Origin: Nitrosopumilus sp.
GTDB lineage: Archaea; Thermoproteota; Nitrososphaeria; Nitrososphaerales; Nitrosopumilaceae
Reading direction: 5' to 3'
Length of the DNA stretch: 64,000 bases
Assembly: GCA_965207075.1 (NCBI GenBank)
Contig: CBDBLO010000002.1
Span: 1,312,001-1,376,000 of the forward strand
The notes under the pieces were generated by a model. The model saw nothing but the letters and a program-made list of their open reading frames with translations, was not told where the DNA came from and did not search any database. Positions 1,073 through 62,194 of this stretch are shown here, one piece after another. How positions within the stretch are numbered: position 1 is the stretch's first letter; every line of letters begins with the position of its first letter. The position numbers were made by a program, and so were the translations under genes.

Positions 1073-1333
1073 GCATGTGGTTGTGGCATGCCGTGTATAT
1101 CAATCTGCGACCGCCCGTATTCCCACGGTGGCGACGCCGGGACTGGCGGCGTAGCGCCATGCGGGCTGATCCCCCCCCGTCCCTACAGCTCGGAGTATGC
1201 GCCATTGATGACTTTGGAAGCGGCGCGTGCAAGAGAGCCTGTCGCGGGGCGGTAGTGCGATTTCAATATGCTCAGATTATATTGCCCGCAGCTGGCCATA
1301 CCCCTCGTCTGCGGGACGTCCCCCAAAAACGGA

Positions 1334-2656
1334 GGCTGCATCCGGCGGTTATATACCACGTCGAACAACCGCGGTTCCAATTTGACCATATGAAGAACGG
1401 AGATTTGCGCTCCGGTGGGAGTCACTGCACAAGACACGCAAAAACCCCTTCAAAAAAGGTTAAACGGCGTACAGTCCAACCAACCGTGCGCAGGCTGCGC
1501 TCCGCATGCATTCTCTTCGGAGGTCACTAAATGCATGCTCTAGGCCGCAACGGCCTCGAGCGACTGGCGCGTAAGCCTGCCGCTCCTTACATCGTGCCGC
1601 GCGATCAGCTCGATGTTGTAGCATATGATGCGGGCCGCCATCTCCCTGCGCTGGTTGTCCTTCCGCCTGCACGTGACGTAGCTGCCGTACATGGTCTTGA
1701 TTGCCCCGAACACGGCCTCTATGACGCTGCGCTGGTGGTAGTGCCGCTTGAACTCGGGCAGGTCGTCGTTGTACAGGTCCACCATCACGCGCCACGGCCG
1801 GCTGCCGCGGGCGTTGTGCGACGTGTTCTTCTTGGGCTTGATGTACGGCGCAAACCCCATGCCGGCAAGCCGGCTGCACATCTCCCTTGCCAAATACGCC
1901 GAGTCCAGGCAAAAGTCCGCGCTTCCGTCCGCGTCCAGGCACGGCCCGAACCGGTCAAGCAGGGTGCGCATGCCCGCGATGTCCGAGACGCGGCTCCGGG
2001 TCACGAAATAGTCGGTGATTACGCGCGACCCGACGTCTACTACGGCGTGCAGCTTGATCCAGCCCTTCCTGTGCCTGACCCTGTCGGTCCTGAAGTCGAC
2101 CCACCTGTCGGACCTGCGCTCCGCGACGCCCGTGGCGTCGCCGGCGTGCACCCTGCCGCGCTCCAGCCCCGACGCCACCCTCCTGTGCACCTCGTAAAAG
2201 TACGACTCCGGTATCCTGGCGTAGGCGTCGTTGATGGTGCTCGCCCCGGGCGTGCCGCCGGGCCCAAACCCGATCCTTTCGGCCACGTCCGGGTGGGCGC
2301 GCAAATACGACGCGGCCACGTGAAACGTCTTCCTCTCGGCGTCCCGTATCATGCACGCGACGGCCATGGCCCTGGGCGGATATCCCCGGGGGCCGCCTAT
2401 TCCGGGCCTGTTTACGTAGGGTGCGTCAAGCTCGCCCACGATCCTGACCATGGTGTTGAGTATCAGTCCCGAGAGGTGCCCCTTTACCAGGTCGTACGCC
2501 CGCTGATCACGCTTCTCCTCTGAGGTCACTGGACATGATCAGATCCGCTGATCTATATGCGCAGTTTTTAGAAAAGCAAAGCATATTGTAAAATTTTTTG
2601 ACGTTGCAGATTCTAACCTATCCACTTAATCGAGTATATAACCGCCGGATGCAGCC
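1334..2656 (-). mobile_element. IS5-family (IS903-group-like) insertion sequence, 1323 bp
   Basis: Perfect 23-bp TIRs GGCTGCATCCGGCGGTTATATAC (1334-1356) and its reverse complement (2634-2656); 9-bp TSD AAAAACGGA at 1325-1333, right copy split by the IS481 insertion and complete at 4009-4017; contains a DDE transposase. Confidence 0.9.
1540..2529 (-). CDS. IS5-family DDE transposase
   Basis: Motifs AGDATG, WIKLHAVVD, LDSAY, YHQRSVIEAVFGAIK; intact 329-aa frame. Confidence 0.9.
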   Translation of the reverse strand: MTSEEKRDQRAYDLVKGHLSGLILNTMVRIVGELDAPYVNRPGIGGPRGYPPRAMAVACMIRDAERKTFHVAASYLRAHPDVAERIGFGPGGTPGASTINDAYARIPESYFYEVHRRVASGLERGRVHAGDATGVAERRSDRWVDFRTDRVRHRKGWIKLHAVVDVGSRVITDYFVTRSRVSDIAGMRTLLDRFGPCLDADGSADFCLDSAYLAREMCSRLAGMGFAPYIKPKKNTSHNARGSRPWRVMVDLYNDDLPEFKRHYHQRSVIEAVFGAIKTMYGSYVTCRRKDNQRREMAARIICYNIELIARHDVRSGRLTRQSLEAVAA

Positions 2657-2664
2657 AAAAACGG

Positions 2665-4001
2665 TGTAGAGTCGGAAAATGATGTCACGGTGTGTCGTGA
2701 CATTGCTCCACGCATGCCTGGACTCCATATGAATTTTGAATTCCCGGTTCCGCTGGGCCAGCCCAAGCGGCCGGCAGCGTGCCCGACGTGCGCGAACTGC
2801 CGCGAAAGGTACGCTTTTACATGATCGTGCGCAGCATACGCTGGAGGGTCCTACGGCGGGGTTGACTGAGGTGTCTTACCCGTCGTCATCCTTGTATGAC
2901 CGGCCCTCTGGGAGCCTCCGCTCGCGGTATGCGTCCGCGGGCGTCTGCCCGTACAGGCTGCCGTGCGGCTTGTTGTTGTGGTTCCTGACGAACCTGGCAG
3001 TCGGGTCGCTCTCCATTGCGGCGGGGGCGCCAAACGGGGCCGCCGTGCCCGGCGGTCCCGCAACGTCGGCAAAGTGCCCGACCTTGTACTTGTACTCCTT
3101 GAACACGCGCTCCGCCTTGCCATTGGTCTGGGGATGCCCCACGCGCGCCAGGATCTGCTTTACGCCGGCGTCCCCGAGGTGCTCCTCAAAGTGCGTGCGC
3201 CCCCTTTCGCGCTTTGCCTCGGACTCCATGGCGTAGAACTGGGATCCGTGGTCGGTCAGGACCGAGTACGGCGTCCCGTGCGCCAGGCAGGCCTGCTTGA
3301 AGACCGCGGTGGCGTTCTCGGACGTGGCGCGGTCAAACACGCCGTGTCCGACGATGTACCGGGACGAGTCGTCCACGTATACGATCAGCCACCTCCCGTC
3401 CTCCAGCTGCGTATAGTCCGCGTGCCAGAGCGTGTTGCTGTGCCTCCGCTCGTACCTCACGTACCTGCGCTGCCTCTTCTTGGCGCGCTCCTCGCGCGCC
3501 AGCCCGTTCTCAAGCAGCACCCGGTGCACTACATCCTTTGGGACGTGGTCCCCCGCGTTCCTGATGTGCCAGTATGTGGCAGACGCGCCGTTTACGACCC
3601 GGCCGAACGCGGCCAAAACCGCGGAGTGCTCCCTGCGCCCCGGCTCGCCCTTCCGGTGCCTGCCGGGGCGCCTTGGAAGGTACAGTATCCGCCCCGTGTC
3701 GAGGCGCCTGAACCGGCTCCAGATGCGCTGCACCTGCCTTATGCAGACCTTCAGGATGCCTGCAATCGTCTTGTTGCTTGTCCCCCTCCTCTTTTCGCGG
3801 ACGATGAACCTTGCGTCAAGCGTGTCCAGCTTGCGTATGGGCTTCCTGCCCTTCTCGCTGGCGGTCTTGAGTATGCGCTCGGTCTCCTCCCTTTGTTCCT
3901 GTATGAGGACATGTTCGTCATACTTGGTTTGAGGTGTCATTACGCCTCCCTCCATGTCGGCTCTCTTATGCGTCGGGGTGACATGATTCCCCGACTCTTC
4001 A
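2665..4001 (-). mobile_element. IS481-family insertion sequence, copy 1 (1337 bp)
   Basis: Imperfect 24-bp TIRs TGTAGAGTCGGAAAATGATGTCAC / TGAAGAGTCGGGGAATCATGTCAC; 15-bp TSD TGCAGCCAAAAACGG at 2650-2664 and 4002-4016; near-identical to 24465-25801. Confidence 0.93.
2876..3955 (-). CDS. IS481-family transposase (rve integrase core)
   Basis: N-terminal HTH; DDE triad in WHADY, LTDHGSQF, HPQTNGKAER; start 3955 or 3940 (GGAGG upstream of the latter); the ORF-track start at 4054 lies outside the element. Confidence 0.92.
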   Translation of the reverse strand: MEGGVMTPQTKYDEHVLIQEQREETERILKTASEKGRKPIRKLDTLDARFIVREKRRGTSNKTIAGILKVCIRQVQRIWSRFRRLDTGRILYLPRRPGRHRKGEPGRREHSAVLAAFGRVVNGASATYWHIRNAGDHVPKDVVHRVLLENGLAREERAKKRQRRYVRYERRHSNTLWHADYTQLEDGRWLIVYVDDSSRYIVGHGVFDRATSENATAVFKQACLAHGTPYSVLTDHGSQFYAMESEAKRERGRTHFEEHLGDAGVKQILARVGHPQTNGKAERVFKEYKYKVGHFADVAGPPGTAAPFGAPAAMESDPTARFVRNHNNKPHGSLYGQTPADAYRERRLPEGRSYKDDDG

Positions 4002-8585: not shown

Positions 8586-9905
8586 TCACAGACCTATGCG
8601 GTAATAGTCCCATCTCTCGGGATCAAACCGGGCCACGAACTCGGCCTCCTCCTTGCTCACCCTGGCGCTGACCACGTCCCGCAGCGCAAAGCTTGTGAGG
8701 TATGTGTATTTCTTGGCGCTCGCCTGCATGATGAACATGTTGCGCATGCCGCTTCCGCCTCCCAGCCCCCAGTACCCTATGCTGAGTCCCATTGGCTCCA
8801 GGAATATGGTGTTGGACATGCCGTGGTTCTCGTCGCGTATCTCCTCTCTGAGCTTGTATCTCTCAAGCGGCCCGCCCTTTGCATACCCGACAATCTTGCC
8901 GTTCCGGCCGTTTACGCGCAGCGTGGTCAGTACGGTGCCCGGATCCATCACAGACTCGCCAAACGCAGCGTGCTTGAACTGGAGCGGGGAGGGCAGCTGC
9001 TCAAATATGTTGTACAGCGTGCTGATAAACTCTGGATCGGTCCTGGTGTTTATTGACTCGATTGTCGGTATCAGCTTTAGGTTCTCGTACGCGTGTTCGG
9101 CCTGTATTGTAATCTCTTCCTGCCTGGTCTGGAAGAACGACAGCACTGTGCTGTAAAAGTTCTTTCTCATCTGGTTTGGAAGTATCTGCATTATGGCCCC
9201 TATCATGTCGTCCTCGTTATTCAGCAGGTCCTCAAAGTACGTGACCGCCCTGCGCACTATCAGCGAGGGGCTCCATCCAAGGGCGTGGGCGTTCATCTTT
9301 GCCATCTCCATGGCCTTTGCAAAGTCGCCCAGGGCGTATCCGCTCATGCGGTCAACGACGGACAGGTACCTGCCCATCTCCATCACGTGACTCCTGAATT
9401 CCTGGTCGTCCCTGGCCATGTCGGAGCGCTCAAAGCACTGGAGCGCCCTCTCTTCTGCACTTTTCCTCATCTCGCCGTCCCAAGGATACGTGGTGCGCAG
9501 TATCAGCACCTTTACAATCTCAAAGTCTATTCCGGCCGCCCTGATCTGTTTCTGCAGGTTCTCGTCTCTGGATATGAAGTTCAGAACGCTCTCCTCGTGC
9601 GGCTTGTCCACGTTCTTTAGCGGATCCAGGTCGTGAAAGAGCGCCGCGACATACAGGTGCTCTATGTCGCTCTGCGTAATGTCGATCCTGTCCTGATCCA
9701 TGGCAAGCAGGGTCATGTACGTGACCTCCAGCTCGTGCCTGATGTTGTGGTATCCGTAGTATTTGGTGCCAAGCCCCTTGGTCTCAAAGAGGTTTATCGT
9801 ATAGTCTAGCATCTCCCTGTAGCATTCCTTATCGATGCCGCGCCGCCTCATAAGGTCCAGTATTGTCTCCTTTGTTGCGTGCGTGTATGCTGCAGTCACC
9901 TGCAT
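8586..9905 (-). CDS. HD-domain protein with C-terminal GNAT-like domain
   Basis: YHNIRHE and ALFHD motifs; C-terminal VGYAKGG...YWGLGGG; likely start MQVTAAY at 9905 (the upstream extension is low-complexity). Confidence 0.75.
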   Translation of the reverse strand: MQVTAAYTHATKETILDLMRRRGIDKECYREMLDYTINLFETKGLGTKYYGYHNIRHELEVTYMTLLAMDQDRIDITQSDIEHLYVAALFHDLDPLKNVDKPHEESVLNFISRDENLQKQIRAAGIDFEIVKVLILRTTYPWDGEMRKSAEERALQCFERSDMARDDQEFRSHVMEMGRYLSVVDRMSGYALGDFAKAMEMAKMNAHALGWSPSLIVRRAVTYFEDLLNNEDDMIGAIMQILPNQMRKNFYSTVLSFFQTRQEEITIQAEHAYENLKLIPTIESINTRTDPEFISTLYNIFEQLPSPLQFKHAAFGESVMDPGTVLTTLRVNGRNGKIVGYAKGGPLERYKLREEIRDENHGMSNTIFLEPMGLSIGYWGLGGGSGMRNMFIMQASAKKYTYLTSFALRDVVSARVSKEEAEFVARFDPERWDYYRIGL

Positions 9906-10173
9906 ATCATATTGGTTTCGTGGCGTGCTTTTAAAGATCACCGCGCACGGCCGGGGGCGACGGCCGTGCGCGAATGCCCGTATGGCTGCTCCGCTTGGCG
10001 GCTGTGCGACAGGCGTGGCTCTGGGCTGCACACGGCCGGGCGACTGCGGGGTCTGGGCGCGAAGGGCGGTTTTTTTACCGGAGACTGGGCGCGGCTGGCC
10101 GATTAACCGAGCTTGACACACAAGCCTCTCTTTGACATCATAGTAGATCACGGGGCGCCGCATGAACAAGGTT

Positions 10174-11667
10174 GGGAATCATATAGTCAAGTAAACAACC
10201 ACAATCAATATACCGTACTCTGCCGTATGTAACGCGTGTTCACCTACAGAAAGTACCGCGTGCCCGTGAGGCTGACCACGGAGGAAGAGTCAGAGATATT
10301 GAGACTCCGCGACGCGCAGCGCCAGGCATACAACTGGGCCGTGAAACGCCTCAAGTCAGGGTGGAGTACTGGCAGCGAGTATGACATGCAAAAGCTGCAT
10401 ACGGTAGAGAGGCGCACATTCCCGTGGATGGGGGAGGCGCCCGCGGCCGTACAGAGGGCCGGCATCCGCGACGCGTTTACGGCGGCCAAAATGTCCGTCA
10501 GGCGCGGGCGTGGTATAGGAGACGGCCTGAAATACAGGTCGAGGAAGCGCGGGGGGCGCGGGCCGCTCAGGTGCGGGCTACCTCCCGTAGTGGTGGGCGG
10601 ACGTAAGATCAAGCTGCCGCGCTTCGGCACGGTTGAATGCCGAGGCCCCGTGCTAGACAAGCTGCTGGAGCACGAGCCCCGGTCGTACGAGTTTGTTGAC
10701 ATGTCACAGTCCAAAGACGGCAGGAATCCCCGGTACGTACTGTACGTGTCCTGCAGGGTGCGCGTGCCGGAGTCGTGGAACTCGCCGGCATCTGCGGCAG
10801 CCGCGGCCGCTGTCGCGCCGCCAAGGCGCGCCACCAAGGGCATCGACCGTGGAGTGGTGGAACCGACCGTGGTGGCAGCGCTGGATCCGCACGGAGAGGC
10901 CGTGGATAAGACGTCGTACGACACGGCCTCCCCGTTCAGGGAGAACCGCAGCTGGTACCAACGGCGGCAGCGCAGGATGTCCAATATGAACCCGCGTTCG
11001 GGCAGGTTCCAAAGACTGCGGCGCAGGATGCGCAAAAGAATGCAGAAGGTGGCGAACCGCCGGACGTACGCGGAGTGCGTCGCGGCCAAGCACGTGTGCG
11101 ACGACCACGCCCCGCACACCATAGTGTTTGAGGGCCTCAGGCTCGGGGAGATGACACGGAGGGGAAGGGGACAGTACAAGAAGGGCTTGAACCGCGAGAT
11201 GAGGTTCGTGCGCCATTCTGTGATAGAACAGAGAGTGCGCAACCGCGCGGAACTGACGGGTATCCGCGTCATCACGGTGGATCCCGGATATACGTCTCAG
11301 GAGTGCGCGCGGTGCAGGCACGTTGCAAAGAAGTCCCGTGTAACGAGGGACATGTTCAAGTGCGTCAGATGTCATTACATTCAACAGGCGGACATCAATG
11401 CCGCCATGGTAATCGGGAGACTCGGCCTGCCAACCGTTCCCGATACAGTGCATGAGGCAGGCCCTCCGGAGGTCGGAATGCCCTTCGTGAGACGCGAACT
11501 GGATGCGCGCCTCAACTGCTTCACCGAGGCGGTCGGGGGCGTCAACGGACGGCGCGACAACCAAGCGCCGGCGCATCACCTTGCCAAAGGCATGGAGAAA
11601 GAACGTCGCAAAGTATCAAAGGATGGAGGGCCGCGCAGGCGGCAACTCACCTAAGTATATAATTCCC
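10174..11667 (+). mobile_element. Non-autonomous TIR element (IS1595-like ends) carrying tnpB, 1494 bp
   Basis: Left end GGGAATCATATAGTCAAGTAA vs right end (reverse complement) GGGAATTATATACTTAGGTGA, 16/21 matches; 8-bp direct repeat ACAAGGTT at 10166-10173 and 11668-11675 abutting both ends; tnpB stop lies inside the right TIR. Confidence 0.8.
10236..11654 (+). CDS. tnpB: RNA-guided endonuclease TnpB (IS200/IS605 OrfB family)
   Basis: RQAYNWAV, RuvC-I KGIDRG, RuvC-II IVFEGL, zinc ribbon YTSQECARC...FKCVRC, RuvC-III ADINAA; about 80-aa tail after RuvC-III. Confidence 0.92.
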   Translation: MFTYRKYRVPVRLTTEEESEILRLRDAQRQAYNWAVKRLKSGWSTGSEYDMQKLHTVERRTFPWMGEAPAAVQRAGIRDAFTAAKMSVRRGRGIGDGLKYRSRKRGGRGPLRCGLPPVVVGGRKIKLPRFGTVECRGPVLDKLLEHEPRSYEFVDMSQSKDGRNPRYVLYVSCRVRVPESWNSPASAAAAAAVAPPRRATKGIDRGVVEPTVVAALDPHGEAVDKTSYDTASPFRENRSWYQRRQRRMSNMNPRSGRFQRLRRRMRKRMQKVANRRTYAECVAAKHVCDDHAPHTIVFEGLRLGEMTRRGRGQYKKGLNREMRFVRHSVIEQRVRNRAELTGIRVITVDPGYTSQECARCRHVAKKSRVTRDMFKCVRCHYIQQADINAAMVIGRLGLPTVPDTVHEAGPPEVGMPFVRRELDARLNCFTEAVGGVNGRRDNQAPAHHLAKGMEKERRKVSKDGGPRRRQLT

Positions 11668-11687
11668 ACAAGGTTCAATACTCCTGG
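11410..11687 (+). ncRNA. Putative omega/reRNA overlapping the tnpB 3' end (boundaries approximate)
   Basis: Stems GGCCTGCC/GGCAGGCC (11424-11463), GCCTC/GAGGC, GGCGC/GCGCC, GCCGC-GCAG-GCGGC (11630-11643) at the position where TnpB guide scaffolds normally lie; inferred only. Confidence 0.4.
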
Positions 11688-11703
11688 TCTTGAACGGATC
11701 CGC

Positions 11704-12240
11704 ATGGGCGGGGAGGATAACCACACGCGCGGCGCCAAGCAGAATAGCATCCTGCAACTGCGCACCGAGTTGTCAAACCTTGCCTCCCTGGGCTCTTTTG
11801 AGTTTGTCGCACGCTTTGGCGGCGATGCCGACGACGGGCCCGCCACGTACGTCCTGCGCGACGTGACTGTAAGCGGGCCGCCTCCCGAACGGGACGTCCC
11901 GGCGCGCGGTTCTGGGGGGGACAACCGGACCTATTTCACGAAGAGCCCGATATGCCGCATAAACTGTTCTGCGCGCGATGTATCCATACTTGATGAGATC
12001 ACGCCCAGGATGCTGGGGCCCGGAACGGACTTTGCGGCAGTGCGGGTGGACATCCGTGCTGAGTCCGGAGGCGTGACGGCCAGCCTTGTAGCAAACGTTA
12101 CGGGCAGTGTGGAGGAGCCGTCGGAGTCGCGCGTGCAGCTCGTACTTGTGGTGGTGGATGTGGTAGATCCTCGGCTCGGCTCCAGCATGGGGCGCGACGA
12201 GCTGCAGAATATTTCCAAAACAGGGCCGAAAAACCCCTGA
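11704..12240 (+). CDS. Hypothetical protein
   Basis: ATG just outside the right TSD; beta-rich globular sequence; no family recognised. Confidence 0.5.
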   Translation: MGGEDNHTRGAKQNSILQLRTELSNLASLGSFEFVARFGGDADDGPATYVLRDVTVSGPPPERDVPARGSGGDNRTYFTKSPICRINCSARDVSILDEITPRMLGPGTDFAAVRVDIRAESGGVTASLVANVTGSVEEPSESRVQLVLVVVDVVDPRLGSSMGRDELQNISKTGPKNP

Positions 12241-12412
12241 CAAGTTATCCCCTGCGCGCGGCGCTTGCCGGCCGCGTACTCAGTAGGAGTCTCTTTTCGT
12301 CCAAGCGCCGCACTCTTCGGACGCGGGCTTGCTTTTTTCCTTGGCAATGGCAGTACGCTTGCGCAGGCCGGGCACGGCGTGAAGATGCGCCCCTCTCCGC
12401 CGGGCGGCTCGT

Positions 12413-13129
12413 TTATCCGCCCGTGTGCGCGTCGTACTCTTTTCTCAGATCGTCGTCGGACAGCACCTCGTACGCCTTGTTGATCTCTGCCATTGTAATG
12501 TCGGGATCCGGCGCGTCACTGCCACCGCCCTTTCTGCCGCCCGCCTGTCCGGCCCTGTCCGGGTGTGCCTCCTTTGCAAGCCTCCTGAACGCCTCCTTTA
12601 TCTCGGGCTTGGCCGCGTCGCGGCTAACGCCCAGAATCCCATAATAGTCGGGAAGTCGGCCGCCGCTTGCGTCCTCGAAGAACTCCCTTGCGGCATCCTG
12701 CCGGCCCTTCTTCCTTGTTCCCACCTCCTCGTAGTCGTCTGTCCAGGACGAGTGGTACTTTTCATACGTACGCTCTCTCTTTGAGGCGTACTCCTCTGAG
12801 TTGTCGTAGTCGTTTCTCCTTCGCAGGATTGTGTCCCTTGCAAGAAACAGAAAGATCCCGATCACCGCGGCGGCAAACCCTGCAAGCACCGCAACGGTCT
12901 CCTCGTCTGACACTTCCAGCTCCATGTTGAGCCCCGGCTCCTGCGCGTATGCGTGCTGCTGCAGCGGGGGCGGCGCCAGTACAATGGCGTGGACAAGCGA
13001 CGCTTCCATCTCCCCCGCCGGTGCCGGCAGTGCCTCCGCTGCAGTCGCTGCTGCGGACGCCGCCACGGCCAACGCCAGGACCCCCGCCGCAAGCCCGGCG
13101 CGCGCGAAAATCCAGTATGACACGGGCAA
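12413..13129 (-). CDS. Membrane-anchored protein with C-terminal J domain (DnaJ family)
   Basis: DYYGILGV...[11 protein letters not shown]...[11 protein letters not shown]; hydrophobic segments upstream; start uncertain. Confidence 0.85.
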
Positions 13130-19305: not shown

Positions 19306-21498
19306 ATGGTAAAGTTCAAGTCGACCGGCGAGGTCCTCAAGATAATCAAGAACAAGGATCAGATCCGCAACTTTGGCGTCATCGCCCACGTCGACCACGG
19401 CAAGACGACGATGAGCGACAGCCTCCTTGCATATTCCGGCATCATAGCCCCGTCGGCTGCAGGAAAGGCGCTCGCCATGGACTTTGACAAGGAGGAGCAG
19501 CAGAGGGGCATCACCATATACCAGGCAAACGTCACGCTGCACTTTTCGCAGGCCGGCAAGGAGTACGTGATAAACATGATAGACACCCCGGGGCACGTGG
19601 ATTTCAGCGGCAGGGTGATCAGGAGCCTGCGCGCCATCGACGGCGCGGTGGTGGTGTGCGACGCGGTAGAGGGCATAATGACTCAGACTGAGACCGTCAC
19701 GCGCATGGCCCTCGAGGAGCGGGTGCGCCCTGTGCTGTTCATAAACAAGGTGGACCGCCTGATAAAGGAGCTCCGGCTCACCCCCGAGAAGATGCAGCAG
19801 CAGCTCGCGGACGTGGTGTCCAACTTTAACCGGCTCATAGACACGTACGCGGAGCCCGAGTACAGGGAGAAGTGGAAGGTCTCCATACAGGACGCAAGCG
19901 TAACGTTCGGCTCCGCAAAGGACAGGTGGGCCATCAACATAGACATGATGAAGGAGCGCGGAATCACATTCAAGGACGTCATCGACGCCTACGAGGGCGA
20001 GAAGGTGCCGGAACTGGTGGAGAAGGCACCCCTCGCCGACGCCGTCCTCGGGATGGTGGTAAAGCACCACCCCCCGCCACACGAGGCAGTAAAGTATAGG
20101 ATACCACAGATATGGAAGGGCGACCTCGACTCGGACGTCGGCAAGGCGCTGCTGGCGTGCAGCGACGACGGGCCCACCATAATGATGGTCGTAAACATGG
20201 TGCTCGATCCGGCCGCCGGACCCGTCGCCATAGGCAGGCTGTTCTCCGGTACGGTCAGGGACGGCCAGACAATCCACATAATAGACGAAAAGCGCGAGGG
20301 GCGCATCCAGTCCGTCAACTTCTTCATGGGGAACCAGCGTGAGCAGGTCGGCGAGCTGGGAGCAGGGAACATACCCGCGCTGCTCGGACTCACGGAGGCC
20401 AGGGCCGGGAACACCGTGTCCGCGGTCAAGGAGATGCCCGTGTTTGAGGGGGTAAAGTACGTCTCCGAGCCCGTCGTGCAGGTGGCCATAGAGCCAAAAC
20501 ACCCCAAGGACCTGCCAAAGCTGGTCGACGTACTAAAACAGCTTACCATAGAGGATCCGAACCTCGTGGTGAAGATAGACGAGGAGAGCGGCGAGACCAT
20601 AGTCGCGGGGATGGGGGTGCTGCACCTCGACGTCGCGACGCACCGCATACAGGACGCAAAGCTCGAGATCGTCACGTCCGAGCCGCTGATAAACTACCGC
20701 GAGACCGTGCACTCCTCCTGCGAGGCCGTCATGGCAAAGTCCCCCAACCGGCACAACAAGATCTTCATGAGGGTCGAGCCGCTGGAGCCCGAGATTGCCG
20801 AGATGCTCCGCACGGGCGAGATCAGTGACATGAAGGACAAGAAGACGGTATCTGACCTGCTAAAGGGGGCCGGCTGGGACACGGACACCATAAAGAGGGT
20901 TATGAGGCTCGACTCGCGCGGAAACGTGCTGATAAACGGCACCAAGGGAGTGCAGTTCGTCCAGGAGTCGACTGACTCCATAAACTCCGGGTTTGACGAG
21001 GTGATGAAGGAGGGACCGCTGTGCAGGGAGCAGATGCGCGACTGCAAGTTCACGTTTACGCACTTTGTGCCGCACGAGGATACGGCGCACCGCGGGCTCT
21101 CGCAGCTGGGGCCCGCGTCGAGGCGCGCGTGCATGGGGGCCCTGCTGACTGCTGGCACCGCCATACTGGAGCCGATGCTTGCAATAGAGGTGCGCGTCCC
21201 GACCGATTTGGTCGGTAACGTCGCGACCGTCCTGTCCGGCAAGCGCGGCAAGGTACTTGACATGTCGCAGATGGGCGCGTCAAGCATAGTGACCGGTGAG
21301 ATACCCGCCTCCGAGACGTTCACTTTATCCGAGGAGATGAGGGGACAGACTGCCGGCAGGGCCACGTGGAATACGTCGTTCAAGGAGTGGAGCGAGGTGC
21401 CAAAGTCCATGCTCACAAGCACCATATCGGAGATTAGAAAGCGCAAGGGACTCTCGCCGGAACCACCCAGGGCCGACGAGTTCATCGACAAGGAATAG
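19306..21498 (+). CDS. fusA: Translation elongation factor EF-2
   Basis: AHVDHGKTT, RGITI, DTPGHVDF, NKVD, diphthamide loop HEDTAHRG. Confidence 0.98.
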   Translation: MVKFKSTGEVLKIIKNKDQIRNFGVIAHVDHGKTTMSDSLLAYSGIIAPSAAGKALAMDFDKEEQQRGITIYQANVTLHFSQAGKEYVINMIDTPGHVDFSGRVIRSLRAIDGAVVVCDAVEGIMTQTETVTRMALEERVRPVLFINKVDRLIKELRLTPEKMQQQLADVVSNFNRLIDTYAEPEYREKWKVSIQDASVTFGSAKDRWAINIDMMKERGITFKDVIDAYEGEKVPELVEKAPLADAVLGMVVKHHPPPHEAVKYRIPQIWKGDLDSDVGKALLACSDDGPTIMMVVNMVLDPAAGPVAIGRLFSGTVRDGQTIHIIDEKREGRIQSVNFFMGNQREQVGELGAGNIPALLGLTEARAGNTVSAVKEMPVFEGVKYVSEPVVQVAIEPKHPKDLPKLVDVLKQLTIEDPNLVVKIDEESGETIVAGMGVLHLDVATHRIQDAKLEIVTSEPLINYRETVHSSCEAVMAKSPNRHNKIFMRVEPLEPEIAEMLRTGEISDMKDKKTVSDLLKGAGWDTDTIKRVMRLDSRGNVLINGTKGVQFVQESTDSINSGFDEVMKEGPLCREQMRDCKFTFTHFVPHEDTAHRGLSQLGPASRRACMGALLTAGTAILEPMLAIEVRVPTDLVGNVATVLSGKRGKVLDMSQMGASSIVTGEIPASETFTLSEEMRGQTAGRATWNTSFKEWSEVPKSMLTSTISEIRKRKGLSPEPPRADEFIDKE

Positions 21499-24464: not shown

Positions 24465-25801
24465 TGAAGAGTCGGGGAATCATGTCACCCCGACGCATAA
24501 GAGAGCCGACATGGAGGGAGGCGTAATGACACCTCAAACCAAGTATGACGAACATGTCCTCATACAGGAACAAAGGGAGGAGACCGAGCGCATACTCAAG
24601 ACCGCCAGCGAGAAGGGCAGGAAGCCCATACGCAAGCTGGACACGCTTGACGCAAGGTTCATCGTCCGCGAAAAGAGGAGGGGGACAAGCAACAAGACGA
24701 TTGCAGGCATCCTGAAGGTCTGCATAAGGCAGGTGCAGCGCATCTGGAGCCGGTTCAGGCGCCTCGACACGGGGCGGATACTGTACCTTCCAAGGCGCCC
24801 CGGCAGGCACCGGAAGGGCGAGCCGGGGCGCAGGGAGCACTCCGCGGTTTTGGCCGCGTTCGGCCGGGTCGTAAACGGCGCGTCTGCCACATACTGGCAC
24901 ATCAGGAACGCGGGGGACCACGTCCCAAAGGACGCCGTGCACCGGGTGCTGCTTGAGAACGGGCTGGCGCGCGAGGAGCACGCCAAGAAGAGGCAGCGCA
25001 GGTACGTGAGGTACGAGCGGAGGCACAGCAACACGCTCTGGCACACGGACTATACGCAGCTGGAGGACGGGAGGTGGCTGATCGTATACGTGGACGACTC
25101 GTCCCGGTACATCGTCGGACACGGCGTGTTTGACCGCGCCACGTCCGAGAACGCCACCGCGGTCTTCAAGCAGGCCTGCCTGGCGCACGGGACGCCGTAC
25201 TCGGTCCTGACCGACCACGGATCCCAGTTCTACGCCATGGAGTCCGAGGCAAAGCGCGAAAGGGGGCGCACGCACTTTGAGGAGCACCTCGGGGACGCCG
25301 GCGTAAAGCAGATCCTGGCGCGCGTGGGGCATCCCCAGACCAATGGCAAGGCGGAGCGCGTGTTCAAGGAGTACAAGTACAAGGTGGGGCACTTTGCCGA
25401 CGTTGCGGGACCGCCGGGCACGGCGGCCCCGTTTGGCGCCCCCGCCGCAATGGAGAGCGACCCGACTGCCAGGTTCGTCAGGAACCACAACAACAAGCCG
25501 CACGGCAGCCTGTACGGGCAGACGCCCGCGGACGCATACCGCGAGCGGAGGCTCCCAGAGGGCCGGTCATACAAGGATGACGACGGGTAAGACACCTCAG
25601 TCAACCCCGCCGTAGGACCCTCCAGCGTATGCTGCGCACGATCATGTAAAAGCGTACCTTTCGCGGCAGTTCGCGCACGTCGGGCACGCTGCCGGCCGCT
25701 TGGGCTGGCCCAGCGGAACCGGGAATTCAAAATTCATATGGAGTCCAGGCATGCGTGGAGCAATGTCACGACACACCGTGACATCATTTTCCGACTCTAC
25801 A
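24465..25801 (+). mobile_element. IS481-family insertion sequence, copy 2 (1337 bp)
   Basis: Same TIRs as copy 1; 15-bp TSD GTTTCTGGCCCTGAC at 24450-24464 and 25802-25816. Confidence 0.93.
24511..25590 (+). CDS. IS481-family transposase
   Basis: DDE triad in WHTDY / LTDHG / GKAER; three amino-acid differences seen versus copy 1. Confidence 0.92.
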   Translation: MEGGVMTPQTKYDEHVLIQEQREETERILKTASEKGRKPIRKLDTLDARFIVREKRRGTSNKTIAGILKVCIRQVQRIWSRFRRLDTGRILYLPRRPGRHRKGEPGRREHSAVLAAFGRVVNGASATYWHIRNAGDHVPKDAVHRVLLENGLAREEHAKKRQRRYVRYERRHSNTLWHTDYTQLEDGRWLIVYVDDSSRYIVGHGVFDRATSENATAVFKQACLAHGTPYSVLTDHGSQFYAMESEAKRERGRTHFEEHLGDAGVKQILARVGHPQTNGKAERVFKEYKYKVGHFADVAGPPGTAAPFGAPAAMESDPTARFVRNHNNKPHGSLYGQTPADAYRERRLPEGRSYKDDDG

Positions 25802-58193: not shown

Positions 58194-59256
58194 AGCCATA
58201 TTCCTCATAGACCTGCTTGCAATATTCGCGGTCTACGTGATCGTCAACCTGAGCCTGAACATGGAGTTCGGGTATACAGGGATCCCGAACTTTGGCAAGG
58301 TGCTGGCAGTCGGGGCAGGGGCGTTCGTCGCCGCGTCGGTTCCCGGCAGGATATTCGCAGCCATGGCGGGCATCGAAGGGGACTACGTACTCGACAACCT
58401 CGCCATCGTCTCCCAAGTTAACGCATGGCTGGTGGACAACACGGGAATCGGGTTTGCCATCTTCTTCCTGACGCTGGGAGTAGCTGCCGCCGTGGGAGGG
58501 GGGCTGGGAATTCTCACGTCATATCCTGCGATACGCATGCGCGGCGACTACCTTGCCATCACGCTGCTGGCGTTTGGCGAGAGCATCCGCATAATCGGCA
58601 ACAACTTCACCCCGCTCGTGGGCGGGACGCTGGGAGTCCAGCTGCCGGACCCGCTGTCCTTCCTTCCCGACGAGATCCGCTTCTCGGTGGCCACGCTGGG
58701 ACTGGTTCTCATTGCGGCTGCCGTCTTTGTCTTTAGCGAGAAGATGATCCGCTCGCCGCTTGGAAGGCTACTTCGGGCCGTCCGCGACAACGAGGTCGCT
58801 GCGGAGTCCCTAGGAAAGGACACGGCGCGGATCAGGATGAAGGTGATCATGATCTCGGCCGCGCTCGCCGCGGTGGGCGGCGCGCTATACGCATTCTACG
58901 TGGGCGGCGCCATTGCGTTTGCATACGACAGGGCGAGCTGGACGTTCTGGCCGTTCCTCATGATTCTGATAGGCGGGCTTGCAAACAACAAGGGGGTCCT
59001 GTTCGGCACACTGATCTTCGTCACCGTGCGAAAGCTCATCATCTTCTTCAAGGACTCCTTTGAGGGACTGGTCCCCTTTGACATCATCTGGCTTGATTTT
59101 CTGCTACTGGGCGTGATACTGCTGGTGATACTGCTGTACCGCCCGCAGGGGCTGTTTGTGGAAAAGCCTACCGCGACGATTGGGAGAGGGGCGGGACGCG
59201 TCAGAAAGGATCGGGGCGGGGCAGGAAGAAGGCTGTTTGACTTTCTCTTCAGGTAG
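58177..59256 (+). CDS. livM: Branched-chain amino acid ABC transporter permease
   Basis: LNMEFGYTG..NFG, RMRGDYLAITLLAFGE, SPLGRLLRAVRDNE, RPQGL. Confidence 0.92.
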   Translation: MVLETEAIFLIDLLAIFAVYVIVNLSLNMEFGYTGIPNFGKVLAVGAGAFVAASVPGRIFAAMAGIEGDYVLDNLAIVSQVNAWLVDNTGIGFAIFFLTLGVAAAVGGGLGILTSYPAIRMRGDYLAITLLAFGESIRIIGNNFTPLVGGTLGVQLPDPLSFLPDEIRFSVATLGLVLIAAAVFVFSEKMIRSPLGRLLRAVRDNEVAAESLGKDTARIRMKVIMISAALAAVGGALYAFYVGGAIAFAYDRASWTFWPFLMILIGGLANNKGVLFGTLIFVTVRKLIIFFKDSFEGLVPFDIIWLDFLLLGVILLVILLYRPQGLFVEKPTATIGRGAGRVRKDRGGAGRRLFDFLFR

Positions 59257-59725
59257 GTCGTGCAGGCCCGGCCCATCCGTATGCGCCATCCCTCCCCCCC
59301 CCCCCGCCTAGCGACCTCTGGCAGGAACCACGACTCACCGGCATTCCGGGAGATGCTCGGGGGGATTCCGGACGGCGACGGGTACGTCGTGACGGACGCG
59401 TCGTATCCTATCAAAAGGAGGTGCCATATGATCGCGTACAGCAGAAGAGCCGGCTCCCCCCCCCACCCCCCAAGTGCATCTGTTGCAACCTCTCGTCTTA
59501 TCCCTGCGCGCTCCTTTCCCCGCGAACACATCACGTGGGCGCTGTAGATGGGTTTCGGATTTTGAGGCTGGGCCGACGGAACTGCCCGCCATGATCAGAA
59601 TTTTCCGGGCTTTCGACGGCTTGACCGCGTCTGCACCCGTTGAAACGTCCGCAACAATCACCAGAATATCGCCGAGTTGGACGCGCCAGATTGTGCCAAG
59701 CATTTAAGAACTATGCATCGCAGGT

Positions 59726-62194
59726 ATGATATTGGACTCAAAGAAGGGAGCCGCGATCGGGGTTGGCATAGCCGTGGTAATTGCCGCCGCCGTGGCGGCA
59801 GGCATTATGGGTTCGGCGCCCGTGGACGAGGCAGATGATCAGGTAGCTCCGGATGACGAAGGCGTGCCGGAGGCGCCGGCCGTTGAGGAGACGGTAGTGG
59901 AAGGAGGAGACGGACTCTCAGGCGACGTTACGATAGGGCTGATCCTGCCGCTCACGGGGGACCTGGCGCACAAGGGTCACGAGAACTGGGAGGGCTCAAA
60001 GTTCGGGCTGCAGCAGTTCAACAAGTACCTCGAGGAGAGGGGCGAGCCGTGGCAGCTCAGGATGGTCTCAGAAGACTCTGCGACCAACCCGGTCGTGGCG
60101 CTCGAGAAGCTCACCTCGCTCAAGGCAAAGGGGATCGACATCGTGGTCGGCCCCGAGACGAGTTCCAACATACGAAACATCAAGGGCTATGCGGACTCAA
60201 ACAACATGCTGCTGTTCAGCTGCTGCTCAACTGCGCCTGCGCTCTCGATCGCAGGCGACAGCGTCTACCGCTTGGTTCCAAACGACACGTTTCAGGGCAC
60301 GGCAATCGCAAAGAAGATACAGCACGACGGCGCCCAGGTTCTGGTCCCGATGTGGAGGGGAGACGCATGGGGCGACGGGCTCACGGAGGCCACGGTAAAG
60401 TCCATTGAGGAGCGCGGCCTTGCGGTGGCAGAGGGGGTGAGGTACAACCCCGAGTCCCCCGAGTTCTCCGCGTCCGTGTCGCTACTGGCCGCACAGGTGC
60501 AGGAGCTGGCAGAGGACTACGAGACGGATGAGATAGCAGTCGCGATATTTGGCTTTGGCGAGACGGTGAACGTGGTGCAGGCTGCGGCGCAGCACGACAT
60601 ACTTGACGACGTCAGGTGGTACGGCGGAGATTCCAACGTAAAGGAGATCGGGTTCATAGAGGATCCGATAGCATCCGAGTTTGCAGACAAGGTGCAGTTT
60701 ACCGCCAGCCAGTTCTCGATATCAGAGAACGAGGTTACAGAACAGATCGATGAGCACGTGCTAGAGGCCCTGGGACGTGAGGGATACGCCTACATCAACA
60801 CGTCCCACGACGTGGTGTGGCTCCTCGGGCTCTCCATACTGGAGGCGCAGAGCACGGACGTGGACGCGGTAAAGGCCGTACTTCCGGAGGTGGCCTCCAA
60901 GTACTCGGGCGCCCTTGACTCGGTAGACCTGAATGAGGCCGGGGACCTCAGCGGCGCGGACTATGGGGTCTGGAGTATAATAGACAACGAATGGGTGCTT
61001 GCCGACGTGTATGACTTTGAGACTGACTCCATAGTAGACCCGGCCGCCGACGCGTCCGAACTCTCAGGCGACGTTACGATAGGGCTGATCCTGCCGCTCA
61101 CGGGGGACCTGGCGCACAAGGGTCACGAGAACTGGGAGGGCTCAAAGTTCGGGCTGCAGCAGTTCAACAAGTACCTCGAGGAGAGGGGCGAGCCGTGGCA
61201 GCTCAGGATGGTCTCAGAAGACTCTGCGACCAACCCGGTCGTGGCGCTCGAGAAGCTCACCTCGCTCAAGGCAAAGGGGATCGACATCGTGGTCGGCCCC
61301 GAGACGAGCGCCAGTATACGAAACGTCAAGGGCTATTCGGACTCAAACAACATGCTGCTGTTCAGCTGCTGCTCCAGCGCGCCAGGACTTGCGATCGCAG
61401 GCGACAGCGTCTACCGCTTGGTTCCAAACGACACGCTGCAGGGCACGGCAATCGCAAAGAAGATACAGCATGACGGCGCCCAGGTTCTGGTCCCGATGTG
61501 GAGGGGAGACGCATGGGGCGACGGGCTCACGGAGGCCACGGTAAAGTCCATTGAGGAGCGCGGCCTTGCGGTGGCAGAGGGGGTGAGGTACAACCCCGAG
61601 TCCCCCGAGTTCTCCGCGTCCGTGTCGCTACTGGCCGCACAGGTGCAGGAGCTGGCAGAGGACTACGAGATGAATGAAATAGCAGTCTCTATATTCGGCT
61701 TTGGCGAGACGGTAAACGCGGCCCAGACCGCATCCCAGTACGACATACTCGGTGACGTCAGGTGGTACGGCGGGGCATCCAACGTAAAGGAGATCGGGTT
61801 CATAGAGGATCCGATAGCATCCGAGTTTGCAAACAAGGTACGGTATACTTCCAGCCAGTTCTCAATATCGGAAAACGAGATCACCAAAAAGATAGACGCC
61901 CACGTGCTAGAGGCCCTGGGACGTGAGGGATACGCCTACATCAACACGTCCCACGACGTGGTGTGGCTCCTCGGGCTCTCCATACTGGAGGCGCAGAGCA
62001 CGGACGTGGACGCGGTAAAGGCCGTACTTCCGGAGGTAGCCTCCAAGTACTCGGGCGCCCTTGACTCGGTAGACCTGAATGAGGCCGGCGACCTCGGCGC
62101 CGCGGATTATAGGATCTGGAGCGTCATAGACAACGAGTGGGTGATTGCCGACGTGTATGACTTTGAGACTGACTCCATAGTGCCCCCGGCCTGA
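59726..62194 (+). CDS. livK: Membrane-anchored ABC substrate-binding protein with two tandem LivK/LivJ-type domains
   Basis: N-terminal TM; two copies of IGLILPLTG...VVGP..S...CS(T/S)AP...YRLVPND...DAWG. Confidence 0.88.
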   Translation: MILDSKKGAAIGVGIAVVIAAAVAAGIMGSAPVDEADDQVAPDDEGVPEAPAVEETVVEGGDGLSGDVTIGLILPLTGDLAHKGHENWEGSKFGLQQFNKYLEERGEPWQLRMVSEDSATNPVVALEKLTSLKAKGIDIVVGPETSSNIRNIKGYADSNNMLLFSCCSTAPALSIAGDSVYRLVPNDTFQGTAIAKKIQHDGAQVLVPMWRGDAWGDGLTEATVKSIEERGLAVAEGVRYNPESPEFSASVSLLAAQVQELAEDYETDEIAVAIFGFGETVNVVQAAAQHDILDDVRWYGGDSNVKEIGFIEDPIASEFADKVQFTASQFSISENEVTEQIDEHVLEALGREGYAYINTSHDVVWLLGLSILEAQSTDVDAVKAVLPEVASKYSGALDSVDLNEAGDLSGADYGVWSIIDNEWVLADVYDFETDSIVDPAADASELSGDVTIGLILPLTGDLAHKGHENWEGSKFGLQQFNKYLEERGEPWQLRMVSEDSATNPVVALEKLTSLKAKGIDIVVGPETSASIRNVKGYSDSNNMLLFSCCSSAPGLAIAGDSVYRLVPNDTLQGTAIAKKIQHDGAQVLVPMWRGDAWGDGLTEATVKSIEERGLAVAEGVRYNPESPEFSASVSLLAAQVQELAEDYEMNEIAVSIFGFGETVNAAQTASQYDILGDVRWYGGASNVKEIGFIEDPIASEFANKVRYTSSQFSISENEITKKIDAHVLEALGREGYAYINTSHDVVWLLGLSILEAQSTDVDAVKAVLPEVASKYSGALDSVDLNEAGDLGAADYRIWSVIDNEWVIADVYDFETDSIVPPA
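59914..62181 (+). repeat. Intragenic direct repeat with 1146-bp period (59914-61035 vs 61060-62181)
   Basis: Long identical nucleotide blocks separated by divergent patches. Confidence 0.95.

What the first reader, a model, noticed from the sequence alone, without database searches (positions are those of the whole stretch)
10166..11675. TnpB carried as sole cargo by an element with IS1595-type terminal inverted repeats and an 8-bp TSD
Seen: tnpB fills almost all of a 1494-bp segment with imperfect TIRs (GGGAATCATATAGTCAAGTAA / GGGAATTATATACTTAGGTGA, 16/21) and an exact 8-bp duplication ACAAGGTT abutting both ends. No TnpA (Y1 or serine) or DDE transposase is inside, and all three RuvC acidic residues plus the zinc ribbon are intact. 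Established: IS200/IS605 and IS607, the normal prokaryotic TnpB hosts, have no TIRs and make no TSD, whereas IS1595-family elements make 8-bp TSDs, carry passenger genes, and (as I recall) the ISNwi1 group has ends ggnnatTAT, which GGGAATTAT fits. Inference: an archaeal non-autonomous DDE transposon has captured an RNA-guided nuclease and is mobilised in trans, a prokaryotic parallel to Fanzor capture by eukaryotic TIR transposons.
Basis: partly seen in the sequence, partly recalled or inferred. Interest (0 to 1): 0.9.

Follow-up and report, generated by a model that had tools for sequence, protein, structure and literature searches.

The report
TnpB cassette with IS1595 transposon ends
A 1.5-kb jumping element in a marine ammonia-oxidising archaeon carries only an RNA-guided nuclease gene (tnpB) but has the ends and 8-bp insertion scar of IS1595-type cut-and-paste transposons, so it is a hitch-hiker moved by a transposase encoded elsewhere: a rare but already described kind of arrangement.

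Summary
Window 10174-11667 is a 1494-bp element with 16/21 terminal inverted repeats (TIRs), an exact 8-bp duplication (ACAAGGTT) and one real gene, an intact tnpB. Two related genomes hold the empty site with a single ACAAGGTT.

The ends begin GGGAATTAT. Transposase-bearing IS1595-family elements of other Nitrosopumilaceae genomes have the same tips and also make 8-bp duplications. In two further genomes an IS1595 transposase gene and a tnpB of the sister clade lie together. Each pair is bounded by an IS1595 left end and a tnpB-side right end, and the whole is flanked by a perfect 8-bp duplication. The IS1595 machinery therefore uses tnpB-side ends.

This genome holds no IS1595 transposase and no Y1 TnpA, so the copy is stranded.

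Seven paralogous tnpB elements sit in the same genome, each with its own TIR pair. Some carry IS6-type ends instead, and the tree needs at least 2-3 switches of end type.

The general idea is published (Altae-Tran 2023): TnpB in DDE transposons, and solo TnpBs moved in trans. I did not find IS1595 or IS6 named as partners. The scan noted the same kind of element before in another genome. How TnpB finds a TAM without a fixed target site is unresolved.

The parts
10166..10173 (.). left copy of the 8-bp target-site duplication ACAAGGTT
   Evidence: a single copy stands in the empty sites of G107 and G125
10174..10194 (+). left terminal inverted repeat GGGAATCATATAGTCAAGTAA (IS1595-type tip GGGAAT.AT)
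   Evidence: It is 19/23 identical to a TIR-like end 335 bp behind an IS1595 transposase fragment in L061. The tips are shared with the IS1595 elements L177, L180, L158 and L171
10207..10212 (+). TATA-like box about 25 nt before the tnpB start (inferred archaeal promoter; possibly a leaderless mRNA)
   Evidence: an A/T-rich ATATAA-like box stands at the same distance before the start codon in all paralogs; its function is inferred only
10236..11654 (+). tnpB, 472 aa, GTG start; RuvC-type RNA-guided nuclease family, catalytic and zinc-ribbon residues conserved
11476..11607 (+). nucleotide block conserved beyond what the protein needs, overlapping the 3' end of tnpB; probable omega-RNA scaffold
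   Evidence: conserved between clades whose proteins are only 33-35% identical; a few covarying pairs in RNAalifold; no Rfam match; no RNA data
11630..11643 (+). small G+C hairpin GCCGC-GCAG-GCGGC between the conserved block and the right TIR
   Evidence: the fold of 11580-11667 is -10.9 kcal/mol, z -1.33, not significant on its own. By my reading, each paralog has a different G+C hairpin at this place
11647..11667 (-). right terminal inverted repeat (reverse complement GGGAATTATATACTTAGGTGA)
   Evidence: Its first 13 nt are identical to both TIRs of the transposase-bearing IS1595 element L177
11668..11675 (.). right copy of the 8-bp target-site duplication ACAAGGTT

Best explanation
Window 10174-11667 is a non-autonomous, transposase-less member of the IS1595 family of DDE transposons. 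Its only cargo is an intact tnpB with a probable omega-RNA region.

An IS1595-family transposase encoded elsewhere recognised the two GGGAAT(T/C)AT-tipped inverted ends. It inserted the element into the intergenic DNA between two divergently read host genes. The staggered 8-bp cut was filled in, which gave the ACAAGGTT duplication.

Such solo cassettes most likely come from composite IS1595-transposase + tnpB units, of the kind still seen in two other Nitrosopumilaceae genomes, by loss of the transposase half. Alternatively, tnpB elements acquired IS ends through adjacent insertion.

The present genome has no IS1595 transposase, so this copy is stranded.

Shown: the ends, the duplication, the empty site, the shared ends with transposase-bearing IS1595 elements, and the composites with one duplication each.
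Inferred: that the IS1595 enzyme moved this very copy, the direction of derivation, and any role of TnpB.
For: Anatomy and empty site.

Family-wide pattern. The same genome holds 7 full tnpB paralogs (52-56% aa identity by tblastn) plus a 573-bp deletion derivative. Each lineage has its own co-varying TIR pair.

Copies F and G are 97% identical over 1408 bp. They sit at different loci with different duplications (GGCCGAAG and TGTCAAGC). That is real transposition.

In G041, 9 elements with GGGRAYTAYATA tips were found. Of the 7 whose flanks I read, 6 have a perfect 8-bp duplication and 1 has 7/8. Left and right TIRs co-vary out to about 25 nt (GAGTGC versus GAGTTACAA sublineages).

IS1595 link. 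A classical IS1595 transposase query hit 17 of 301 Nitrosopumilaceae genomes at E <= 1e-15, and 0 hits in G000. Of the 17 loci I analysed, 6 gave clear GGGAATTAT-type TIRs:
- L177: GGGAATTATATACAATAGTGACGT at both ends, duplication AAACCAAA.
- L180: GGGAATTATCGTGATT[A/G]ATACA, duplication GACGCATG.
- L158: duplication CAATGGGG.
- L171, L161 and L178: the same kind of tip.

Composites. L182 (G201) reads: left TIR AGGAATTACCG, IS1595 tnp, GGGAATTAGCG, 6 bp, GGGAATTACATAC, tnpB of 441 aa, right TIR GGGAATTATATGC. The whole is flanked by CTAGACCC on both sides. L181 (G276) has an IS1595 tnp of 320 aa and a tnpB of 441 aa between GGGAATTATCGTG and GGGAATTATAGAC, flanked by GATACCGG on both sides. 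Pfam confirms both genes in both loci.

Further linked remnants. In L086 (G041) an IS1595 pseudogene is fused in the same orientation to a tnpB 3' end and its TIR. In L061 (G043) an IS1595 fragment is followed by a TIR that is 19/23 identical to this element's left TIR.

A Y1-type mechanism has no enzyme: PF01797 was found in 0 of 4 genomes, while the control rang in 6 named genomes.
Against: - No IS1595-family transposase is in this genome: PF12762 gave 0 hits at E <= 1, and the classical query gave 0 hits. The genome is 95.4% complete. G042, which also holds relatives, has none either.
- The 7 intact IS1595-family copies of G041 belong to another subgroup with unlike ends (CGCTCATATTCCGAATCG). 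No element there with the tnpB-type ends holds a working transposase.
- The two composites carry tnpBs of the sister clade, 33-34% identical to this one. No composite with a tnpB of this element's own clade was seen.
- Identity with transposase-bearing IS1595 ends is confined to the first 9-13 nt.
- Of the 17 IS1595 loci, 11 gave no clear TIR with my simple aligner.
- Other DDE families that make 8-bp duplications do live in this genome: IS6-like, an IS5-like family and IS66.
Confidence: 0.85

Rival explanations
1. The element is moved by another DDE transposase that is actually present in this genome and also makes 8-bp duplications. The candidates are the IS6-family enzyme (C2:1024436-1025368), the IS5-like IS_c/IS_m family, and IS66.
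For: All three are in G000. IS_c/IS_m and IS66 show 8-bp duplications there. The IS6-family gene is in all four tnpB-bearing genomes. Sister paralogs B, C, F and G carry IS6-type ends (GG tip, CTGTT, CAAA-like; family traits from passages of PMC7986276). So this tnpB clade does ride on more than one DDE family.
Against: The ends of this particular element have no CTGTT/CAAA motif. They do not resemble the IS_c/IS_m ends (AATTCTGTTTCCTAATTC) or the IS66 ends (GTACACCCTCAGG). Their first 13 nt equal those of a transposase-bearing IS1595 element.
Confidence: 0.08
2. It is an ordinary IS200/IS605 (IS1341-group) tnpB element moved by a Y1 TnpA through single-stranded DNA, and the inverted repeats and the duplication are incidental.
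For: TnpB is normally found in such elements (passages of PMC10691335 and PMC13565253). A small hairpin lies near the right end.
Against: The empty site shows a true 8-bp duplication, which peel-and-paste does not make (passage of PMC13565253). TIR pairs co-vary within each lineage. The left 87 nt do not fold (-3.5 kcal/mol, z +1.08) and the right-end fold is not significant (z -1.33). PF01797 was found in none of G000, G041, G201 and G276. There is no conserved tetra- or pentanucleotide before the insertion points (my reading of 13 sites).
Confidence: 0.02
3. TnpB itself, an RNase-H-fold nuclease that leaves staggered cuts, drives insertion of its own element, and the duplication comes from its own cut.
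For: No autonomous partner with the same ends is present in G000 or G041, although G041 copies are recent (L056 and L089 nearly identical). TnpB shares the RNase H fold with DDE transposases (recalled).
Against: The duplication is a constant 8 bp in 15 perfect cases, as expected of a DDE enzyme. The ends match those of IS1595 elements that have no tnpB at all (L180, L158). The composites use an IS1595 left end. No strand-transfer activity of TnpB is known (recalled).
Confidence: 0.02

Closest known systems
DDE-transposase-associated TnpB branches and solo TnpBs with the same ends (Altae-Tran et al. 2023, PNAS, PMC10691335; section 9 read in full, other passages by search)
   Same: tnpB lies between inverted terminal repeats. 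The tnpB 3' end is close to the transposon end (13 bp here; within 250 bp there). Solo tnpB copies are bounded by ends like those of transposase-bearing relatives, which that paper reads as mobilisation in trans.
   Different: The partner family named in the main text is IS630. A 2026 review (PMC13565253, passage) lists ISL2, IS630 and IS1031, and all of these make short, sequence-specific duplications. Here the partner is IS1595, with an 8-bp duplication that shows no site consensus. IS1595 does not occur in that paper's main text. Its supplements and Zenodo tables could not be opened and may hold such a branch.
IS1595-family insertion sequences with passenger genes ('tIS') and their transposase-less derivatives
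   Same: 8-bp duplication, GG-tipped short inverted ends, and cargo in place of or beside the transposase. The composites L181, L182 and the 2046-bp L177 are such cargo-bearing units.
   Different: The cargo here is an RNA-guided nuclease. The description of tIS in IS1595 and the ISNwi1 end consensus ggnnatTAT are recalled (Siguier, Gagnevin and Chandler 2009; ISfinder), not seen here. PMC7986276 (passage) only states that several IS families have tIS.
Fanzor (eukaryotic TnpB homologues) inside TIR transposons (Bao and Jurka 2013, PMC3627910; search listing and abstract only)
   Same: A TnpB-family nuclease rides in cut-and-paste DDE transposons with inverted ends and target duplications.
   Different: This case is prokaryotic and the protein is of ordinary TnpB length. 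No evolutionary link to Fanzor was tested here.
IS200/IS605 family, IS1341 group (tnpB-only elements)
   Same: tnpB is the single gene, and the protein family is the same.
   Different: Those elements have no inverted ends and no duplication. They have subterminal hairpins, a fixed target oligonucleotide and Y1 TnpA dependence. None of these holds here.

Membership tests
TnpB (OrfB_IS605 / Cas12f-like RuvC nucleases) | Pfam OrfB_IS605 and the zinc-ribbon TNB domain above curated cut-offs | tested here: met
   PF01385 32.5 bits (cut-off 30.5); PF07282 58.1 bits (cut-off 26.3)
TnpB (OrfB_IS605 / Cas12f-like RuvC nucleases) | full-length homology to structurally solved TnpB; RuvC D-E-D and CCCC residues kept | tested here: met
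   The profile matches ISDra2 TnpB chains over positions 7-383 (E 1.4e-10). D204, E299, D386 and four Cys are invariant in 5 lineages. The assignment of these residues as catalytic is by recalled motifs.
TnpB (OrfB_IS605 / Cas12f-like RuvC nucleases) | an omega-RNA encoded at the 3' end of the gene, with a guide | tested here: inconclusive
   A nucleotide block at 11476-11607 is conserved between clades with 33-35% identical proteins. Covariation support is weak. There is no Rfam family and no RNA run. The place of the guide is unknown.
IS1595 family (as a non-autonomous derivative) | 8-bp target-site duplication | tested here: met
   ACAAGGTT twice and a single copy in two empty sites
IS1595 family (as a non-autonomous derivative) | terminal inverted repeats like those of elements that encode a DDE_Tnp_IS1595 transposase | tested here: met
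   The first 13 nt of the right TIR equal both TIRs of L177. The GGGAATTAT tip is shared with L180, L158, L171, L161 and L178. The left TIR is 19/23 identical to an end beside an IS1595 fragment in L061.
IS1595 family (as a non-autonomous derivative) | encodes a DDE_Tnp_IS1595 transposase (an autonomous member) | tested here: not met
   None inside and none in the genome. It can therefore only be filed as a transposase-less derivative.
IS1595 family (as a non-autonomous derivative) | moved by an IS1595 transposase | not testable with these tools
   Indirect support only: two natural composites use one IS1595 end and one tnpB-side end and carry one 8-bp duplication each.
IS1595 family, ISNwi1 subgroup | end consensus ggnnatTAT | not testable with these tools
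   GGGAATTAT fits, but the consensus is recalled from ISfinder. Searches for it in the paper library found no source.
IS200/IS605 (IS1341 group) | no inverted ends, no duplication, subterminal hairpins, fixed target oligonucleotide, Y1 TnpA in trans | tested here: not met
   TIRs and a true duplication are present. The left end does not fold and the right-end fold is not significant. There is no site consensus in the 13 sites read. PF01797 is absent from the 4 genomes searched.
DDE-associated TnpB (Altae-Tran 2023) | inverted terminal repeats, tnpB 3' end within 250 bp of the end, solo copies with the ends of transposase-bearing relatives | tested here: met
   criteria taken from section 9 of PMC10691335
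DDE-associated TnpB (Altae-Tran 2023) | placement in one of their branches DDE-1 to DDE-6 | not tested
   Their sequences and supplements were not available.

The most novel reading that the evidence does not exclude
This small thaumarchaeal TnpB clade behaves as a free-riding cassette that repeatedly changes its ends between two unrelated DDE families, IS1595 and IS6. Adjacent insertion and use of the outer ends is the likely route, as the composites suggest.

Both partner families insert with 8-bp duplications, and no target-site consensus is seen. The usual rule that the TAM equals the transposon's target site and the guide equals the right flank therefore cannot hold. TnpB here must then either be very relaxed about TAM, take its guide from somewhere other than the flank, or serve a role other than restoring the donor site.
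Probability: 0.3. Interest if true: 0.7.

Novelty: new member of a known kind. Interest (0 to 1): 0.55.

Why it matters
TnpB is thought to persist because it re-cuts the scarless empty site left by IS605/IS607 excision, using the transposon's fixed target site as its TAM. A TnpB that rides in cut-and-paste DDE transposons with no evident site preference does not fit that logic. The 2026 review I read in passages (PMC13565253) treats the rarity of such prokaryotic cases as an open point.

These archaea supply a clean natural series:
- autonomous IS1595 elements;
- IS1595+tnpB composites with intact genes;
- many solo tnpB cassettes with datable insertions and a preserved empty site.

That makes two questions testable with defined parts. 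Can an IS1595 transposase move a tnpB cassette? Where does the guide of such a TnpB come from?

IS1595 is usually described as the prokaryotic relative of the eukaryotic Merlin transposons (recalled; the title and abstract of PMC8101967 were seen only in search listings). The series is therefore also a prokaryotic counterpart of Fanzor-carrying TIR transposons.

Tried and rejected
- IS1595 partner in the same genomes. PF12762 gave nothing in G000 or G042. The 7 intact IS1595-family copies in G041 have unlike ends, so that subgroup was rejected as the partner.
- Search for any element in G041 with the tnpB-type ends and another gene. Only tnpB elements came up. The two long ones hold nested IS3-like and IS110-like insertions by my reading of the ORFs; Pfam was not run on them.
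- A 2.2-kb stretch of G000 between two CTTCCAATTCGTGATA motifs (C2:2130843-2133055). By my reading of the ORFs it holds no transposase; Pfam was not run.
- IS_c/IS_m (IS5-like, 8-bp duplication) as partner. Its ends resemble the IS6-like ends of paralogs only partly, and they do not resemble this element's ends.
- The ends of the IS6-like gene in G000 and G042. Only one plausible end was found in each. Of 22 IS6 loci from other genomes, my aligner gave one clear TIR pair (L186). The rest were A+T-rich chance matches.
- Rfam: no family near its gathering score. RNAalifold on a 12-sequence alignment gave only two short helices.
- No RNA holder was listed for the stretch.
- Contigs of 3 runs bridge both junctions of the filled site. 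No joint of the empty form was seen in the 4 runs laid. Contigs show presence only.
- The metagenome scan gave only 3 loci. The big protein search gave 37 relatives without context.
- Guide or TAM ideas considered and dropped. A TAM in the left flank has no consensus in the 13 sites read. A guide equal to the right TIR fails because the bases before the two ends differ.
- One protein comparison failed on stop codons. The comparison was then made by eye from translations.
Full report
**What is there.** The coordinates and letters of the finding are exact.
- ACAAGGTT stands at 10166-10173 and at 11668-11675.
- Between the two copies lies a 1494-bp element. Its ends, GGGAATCATATAGTCAAGTAA and (in reverse complement) GGGAATTATATACTTAGGTGA, match at 16 of 21 places.
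- The repeat finder found the same arms.
- The one real gene is tnpB (10236-11654, 472 aa). It passes both Pfam models of the family.
- A profile of the tnpB paralogs, headed by this protein, matches solved ISDra2 TnpB over positions 7-383.
- It keeps the acidic and cysteine residues that are invariant in its paralogs.
- The two long antisense frames inside match nothing in Pfam.
- The element sits between two host genes read away from each other. The left one has a weak HD-domain match.

**It is a real insertion.** I searched 121 genomes, G000 included, drawn from the genus with window 9300-12600. Two of them (G107, G125) have both flanks on one contig without the 1.5 kb. Read out, both show a single ACAAGGTT followed by CAATACTCCTGG. 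In G125 the left side even reads GCCGCATGC, against GCCGCATGA in the window.

**It is one of a family.** The genome is 2.23 Mb with 60% G+C. Titles of related records place it in the Nitrosopumilaceae. It holds seven full-length tnpB paralogs, 52-56% identical in protein by tblastn, plus one 573-bp deletion derivative. D and E are one insertion inside a duplicated segment.

Each lineage has its own pair of inverted ends. The duplications I read are:

| Copy | Duplication |
|---|---|
| A | 8 bp |
| B | CAGAAAAA, 8 bp |
| F | GGCCGAAG, 8 bp with a ninth base also matching |
| G | TGTCAAGC, 8 bp with a ninth base also matching |
| D | 6 of 8 |
| short C derivative | 5-7 bp |
| C | none |

F and G are 97% identical over 1408 bp at two loci, so the family has moved in this lineage.

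**Relatives elsewhere are few.**
- The 5.8-billion-protein search gave 37 proteins at E <= 1e-20.
- The species-genome scan gave 16 loci in three assemblies.
- The metagenome scan gave 3 loci.
- In G041 (34% identical proteins), pattern search and follow-up found 9 elements with GGGRAYTAYATA tips. Of the 7 whose flanks I read, 6 have perfect 8-bp duplications and 1 has 7 of 8. The two ends co-vary between sublineages.
- L046 and L049 (G042) and L048 (G043) add three more perfect 8-bp duplications.
- L045, L054 and L092 share a left flank with C. I could not set their left boundary, so they count as 'none seen'. In L047 I found no TIR, and L093 is cut by its contig.

**Who moves it.** No IS1595 transposase (PF12762) is in G000 or G042. 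G041 has 7 intact copies of an IS1595-family IS with 8-bp duplications, but their ends (CGCTCATATTCCGAATCG) differ. I inventoried the multi-copy IS of G000. None of these has ends like this element:
- IS481-like elements with 15-bp duplications;
- an IS903-like element (9 bp);
- an IS5-like family (8 bp);
- an IS4-like element (5 bp);
- IS3;
- two IS630;
- a PIF-like element;
- IS66.

The break came from two decayed loci.
- L086 (G041) joins an IS1595 pseudogene of a different, 'classical' type, in the same orientation, to a tnpB 3' end and its TIR.
- L061 (G043) holds the C-terminal half of such a transposase (116.6 bits on PF12762). It is followed 335 bp later by GGGGATTATATCGTTAAGTAAAC, which is 19 of 23 identical to this element's left end.

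With that fragment as query, 17 of 301 Nitrosopumilaceae genomes had hits, and G000 had none. Among 17 loci with whole genes, 6 gave clear ends. All 6 begin GGGAATTAT. The three whose flanks I read have 8-bp duplications:
- L177: GGGAATTATATACAATAGTGACGT at both ends, duplication AAACCAAA.
- L180: duplication GACGCATG.
- L158: duplication CAATGGGG.
- L171, L161 and L178: the same tip.

The other 11 gave only chance matches with my aligner.

**The composites.** Two of these loci also hold a tnpB right behind the transposase. I extended them and read them.
- L182 (G201): CTAGACCC | AGGAATTACCG... IS1595 tnp ...CGCTAATTCCC | AAATTG | GGGAATTACATAC... tnpB ...ATATAATTCCC | CTAGACCC.
- L181 (G276): GATACCGG | GGGAATTATCGTG... 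IS1595 tnp (320 aa) ... tnpB (441 aa) ...CTATAATTCCC | GATACCGG.

Pfam confirms PF12762 and PF12760 in the first gene of each, and the TnpB domains in the second. One 8-bp duplication around each whole unit means the pair inserted as one piece. It used an IS1595 left end and the end behind tnpB. This is the nearest thing to a natural experiment showing that the IS1595 enzyme accepts tnpB-side ends.

**What it is not.** A Y1 TnpA is found in none of G000, G041, G201 and G276, while the control rang in 6 named genomes. The left 87 nt do not fold as single-stranded DNA, and the right-end fold is not significant. The 13 insertion sites I read show no shared bases before the duplication. The IS200/IS605 mode is therefore excluded as far as sequence can do so.

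**How it most likely works.** An IS1595-family DDE transposase, supplied in trans or once in cis in a composite, binds the two GGGAATTAT-tipped ends and inserts the element with an 8-bp stagger. In this genome the enzyme is gone and the copy is fixed. Contigs of three sequencing runs bridge both junctions, and none shows the empty joint.

TnpB looks functional, and a nucleotide block at its 3' end (11476-11607) is conserved even against the sister clade. That fits an omega-RNA, but the structural support is weak and there are no RNA data. In paralogs the conserved block stops 45-80 nt before the end, followed by a lineage-specific G+C hairpin and the TIR. In G041 conservation runs to the tip. 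Where the guide lies is not known. With no site consensus there is no obvious fixed TAM.

**Side result.** Paralogs B, C, F and G, and L045, L046, L048, L049, L054 and L092, have ends of a second type: GG tip, CTG(T/C)T, then C.AATTCG.
- These fit the IS6-family signature of GG tips with cTGTt and caaa motifs and 8-bp repeats (passages of PMC7986276).
- In L061 an IS6-like transposase fragment ends about 30 bp from GGTACTGCTGCGAATTCGTGAC. That is letter for letter the left end of the tnpB elements L054 and L092.
- An IS6 element with the related ends GGTTCTGTGTAATCTTCGTGATATGG and the duplication CTATTGTG stands in L186.
- PF13610 genes are in all four tnpB-bearing genomes.
- The G000 protein hits 95 of 301 family genomes. 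That tally includes six genomes marked unpublished (G331, G228, G213, G350, G227, G375). No other claim rests on them.
- In the quick tree (the careful search did not finish) the sister clade carries only IS1595-type ends, whereas in this element's clade the two end types interleave. The tree needs 3 changes, and at least 2 are forced by well-supported branches.

**Compared with what is known.** Altae-Tran et al. 2023 (PMC10691335; section 9 read) report six DDE-linked TnpB branches, all with inverted terminal repeats, and solo TnpBs with the same ends, read as mobilisation in trans. The kind is therefore known. The main text names only IS630. A 2026 review adds ISL2 and IS1031 (PMC13565253, passage). 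'IS1595' does not occur in the main text of the 2023 paper. Of the 9 library papers that hold both 'TnpB' and 'IS1595', none, by title and abstract start, is about such an element.

**Verdict.** This is a new member of a known kind, with moderate interest.

Noticed in passing
G000 C2: B 1066645-1068042, C 639556-641088, F about 19498-21082, G 58954-60430 (outside the window): Four tnpB paralogs in the same genome carry IS6-type ends (GG tip, CTGTT, C.AATTCG) and 8-bp duplications instead of IS1595-type ends. In L061 an IS6-like transposase fragment ends about 30 bp from the identical TIR. A 2021 review (passage) says only one IS6 member is known with a passenger gene.
   Followed up: partly
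G000 C2:1513954-1514037, 1517680-1517862 and about 8 more places: About 85-bp MITE-like repeats with the ends GGCACTGCTTCCAATTCGTGATA, the same end type as tnpB element C; two stand in tandem. Their boundaries and duplications were not settled.
   Followed up: partly
L086 (G041:C1 about 1682490-1684000): An IS1595-type transposase pseudogene (one frameshift, truncated) is fused by deletion to the last 240 nt of a tnpB and its right TIR, in the same orientation. It is probably the wreck of a composite like L181 and L182.
   Followed up: partly
L119 / L057 (G041:C1 about 103700-105060): An IS5-like element (ends GACAGCGTTTCATAATTC, duplication CAACGGCG) sits 4 bp from the left end of a tnpB element. 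Its duplication overlaps that of the tnpB element.
   Followed up: no
window 1332-2657, 2665-4001 and 24465-25801: The window holds one copy of a 1326-bp DDE_Tnp_1 IS and two copies of a 1337-bp rve-type (IS481-like) IS that makes 15-bp duplications. The first two lie 7 bp apart.
   Followed up: partly
G000 C2:1-33000 versus 2120787-2179734; C1 versus C2:33000-87000: Long near-identical stretches (88-99%) lie between the two ends of contig C2 and between the small contig C1 and C2. They include the tnpB copies D and E. This is either a segmental duplication or unresolved strain variants in the assembly.
   Followed up: no
window 59911-61045 and 61057-62191: Two adjacent 1135-bp stretches are 93.6% identical (a tandem duplication).
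   Followed up: no
L177 (G218:C1, element of 2046 bp): An IS1595 element with perfect 24-nt TIRs carries about 1 kb of extra DNA behind the transposase, with small ORFs of 73-82 aa. It is a possible passenger-bearing form.
   Followed up: no
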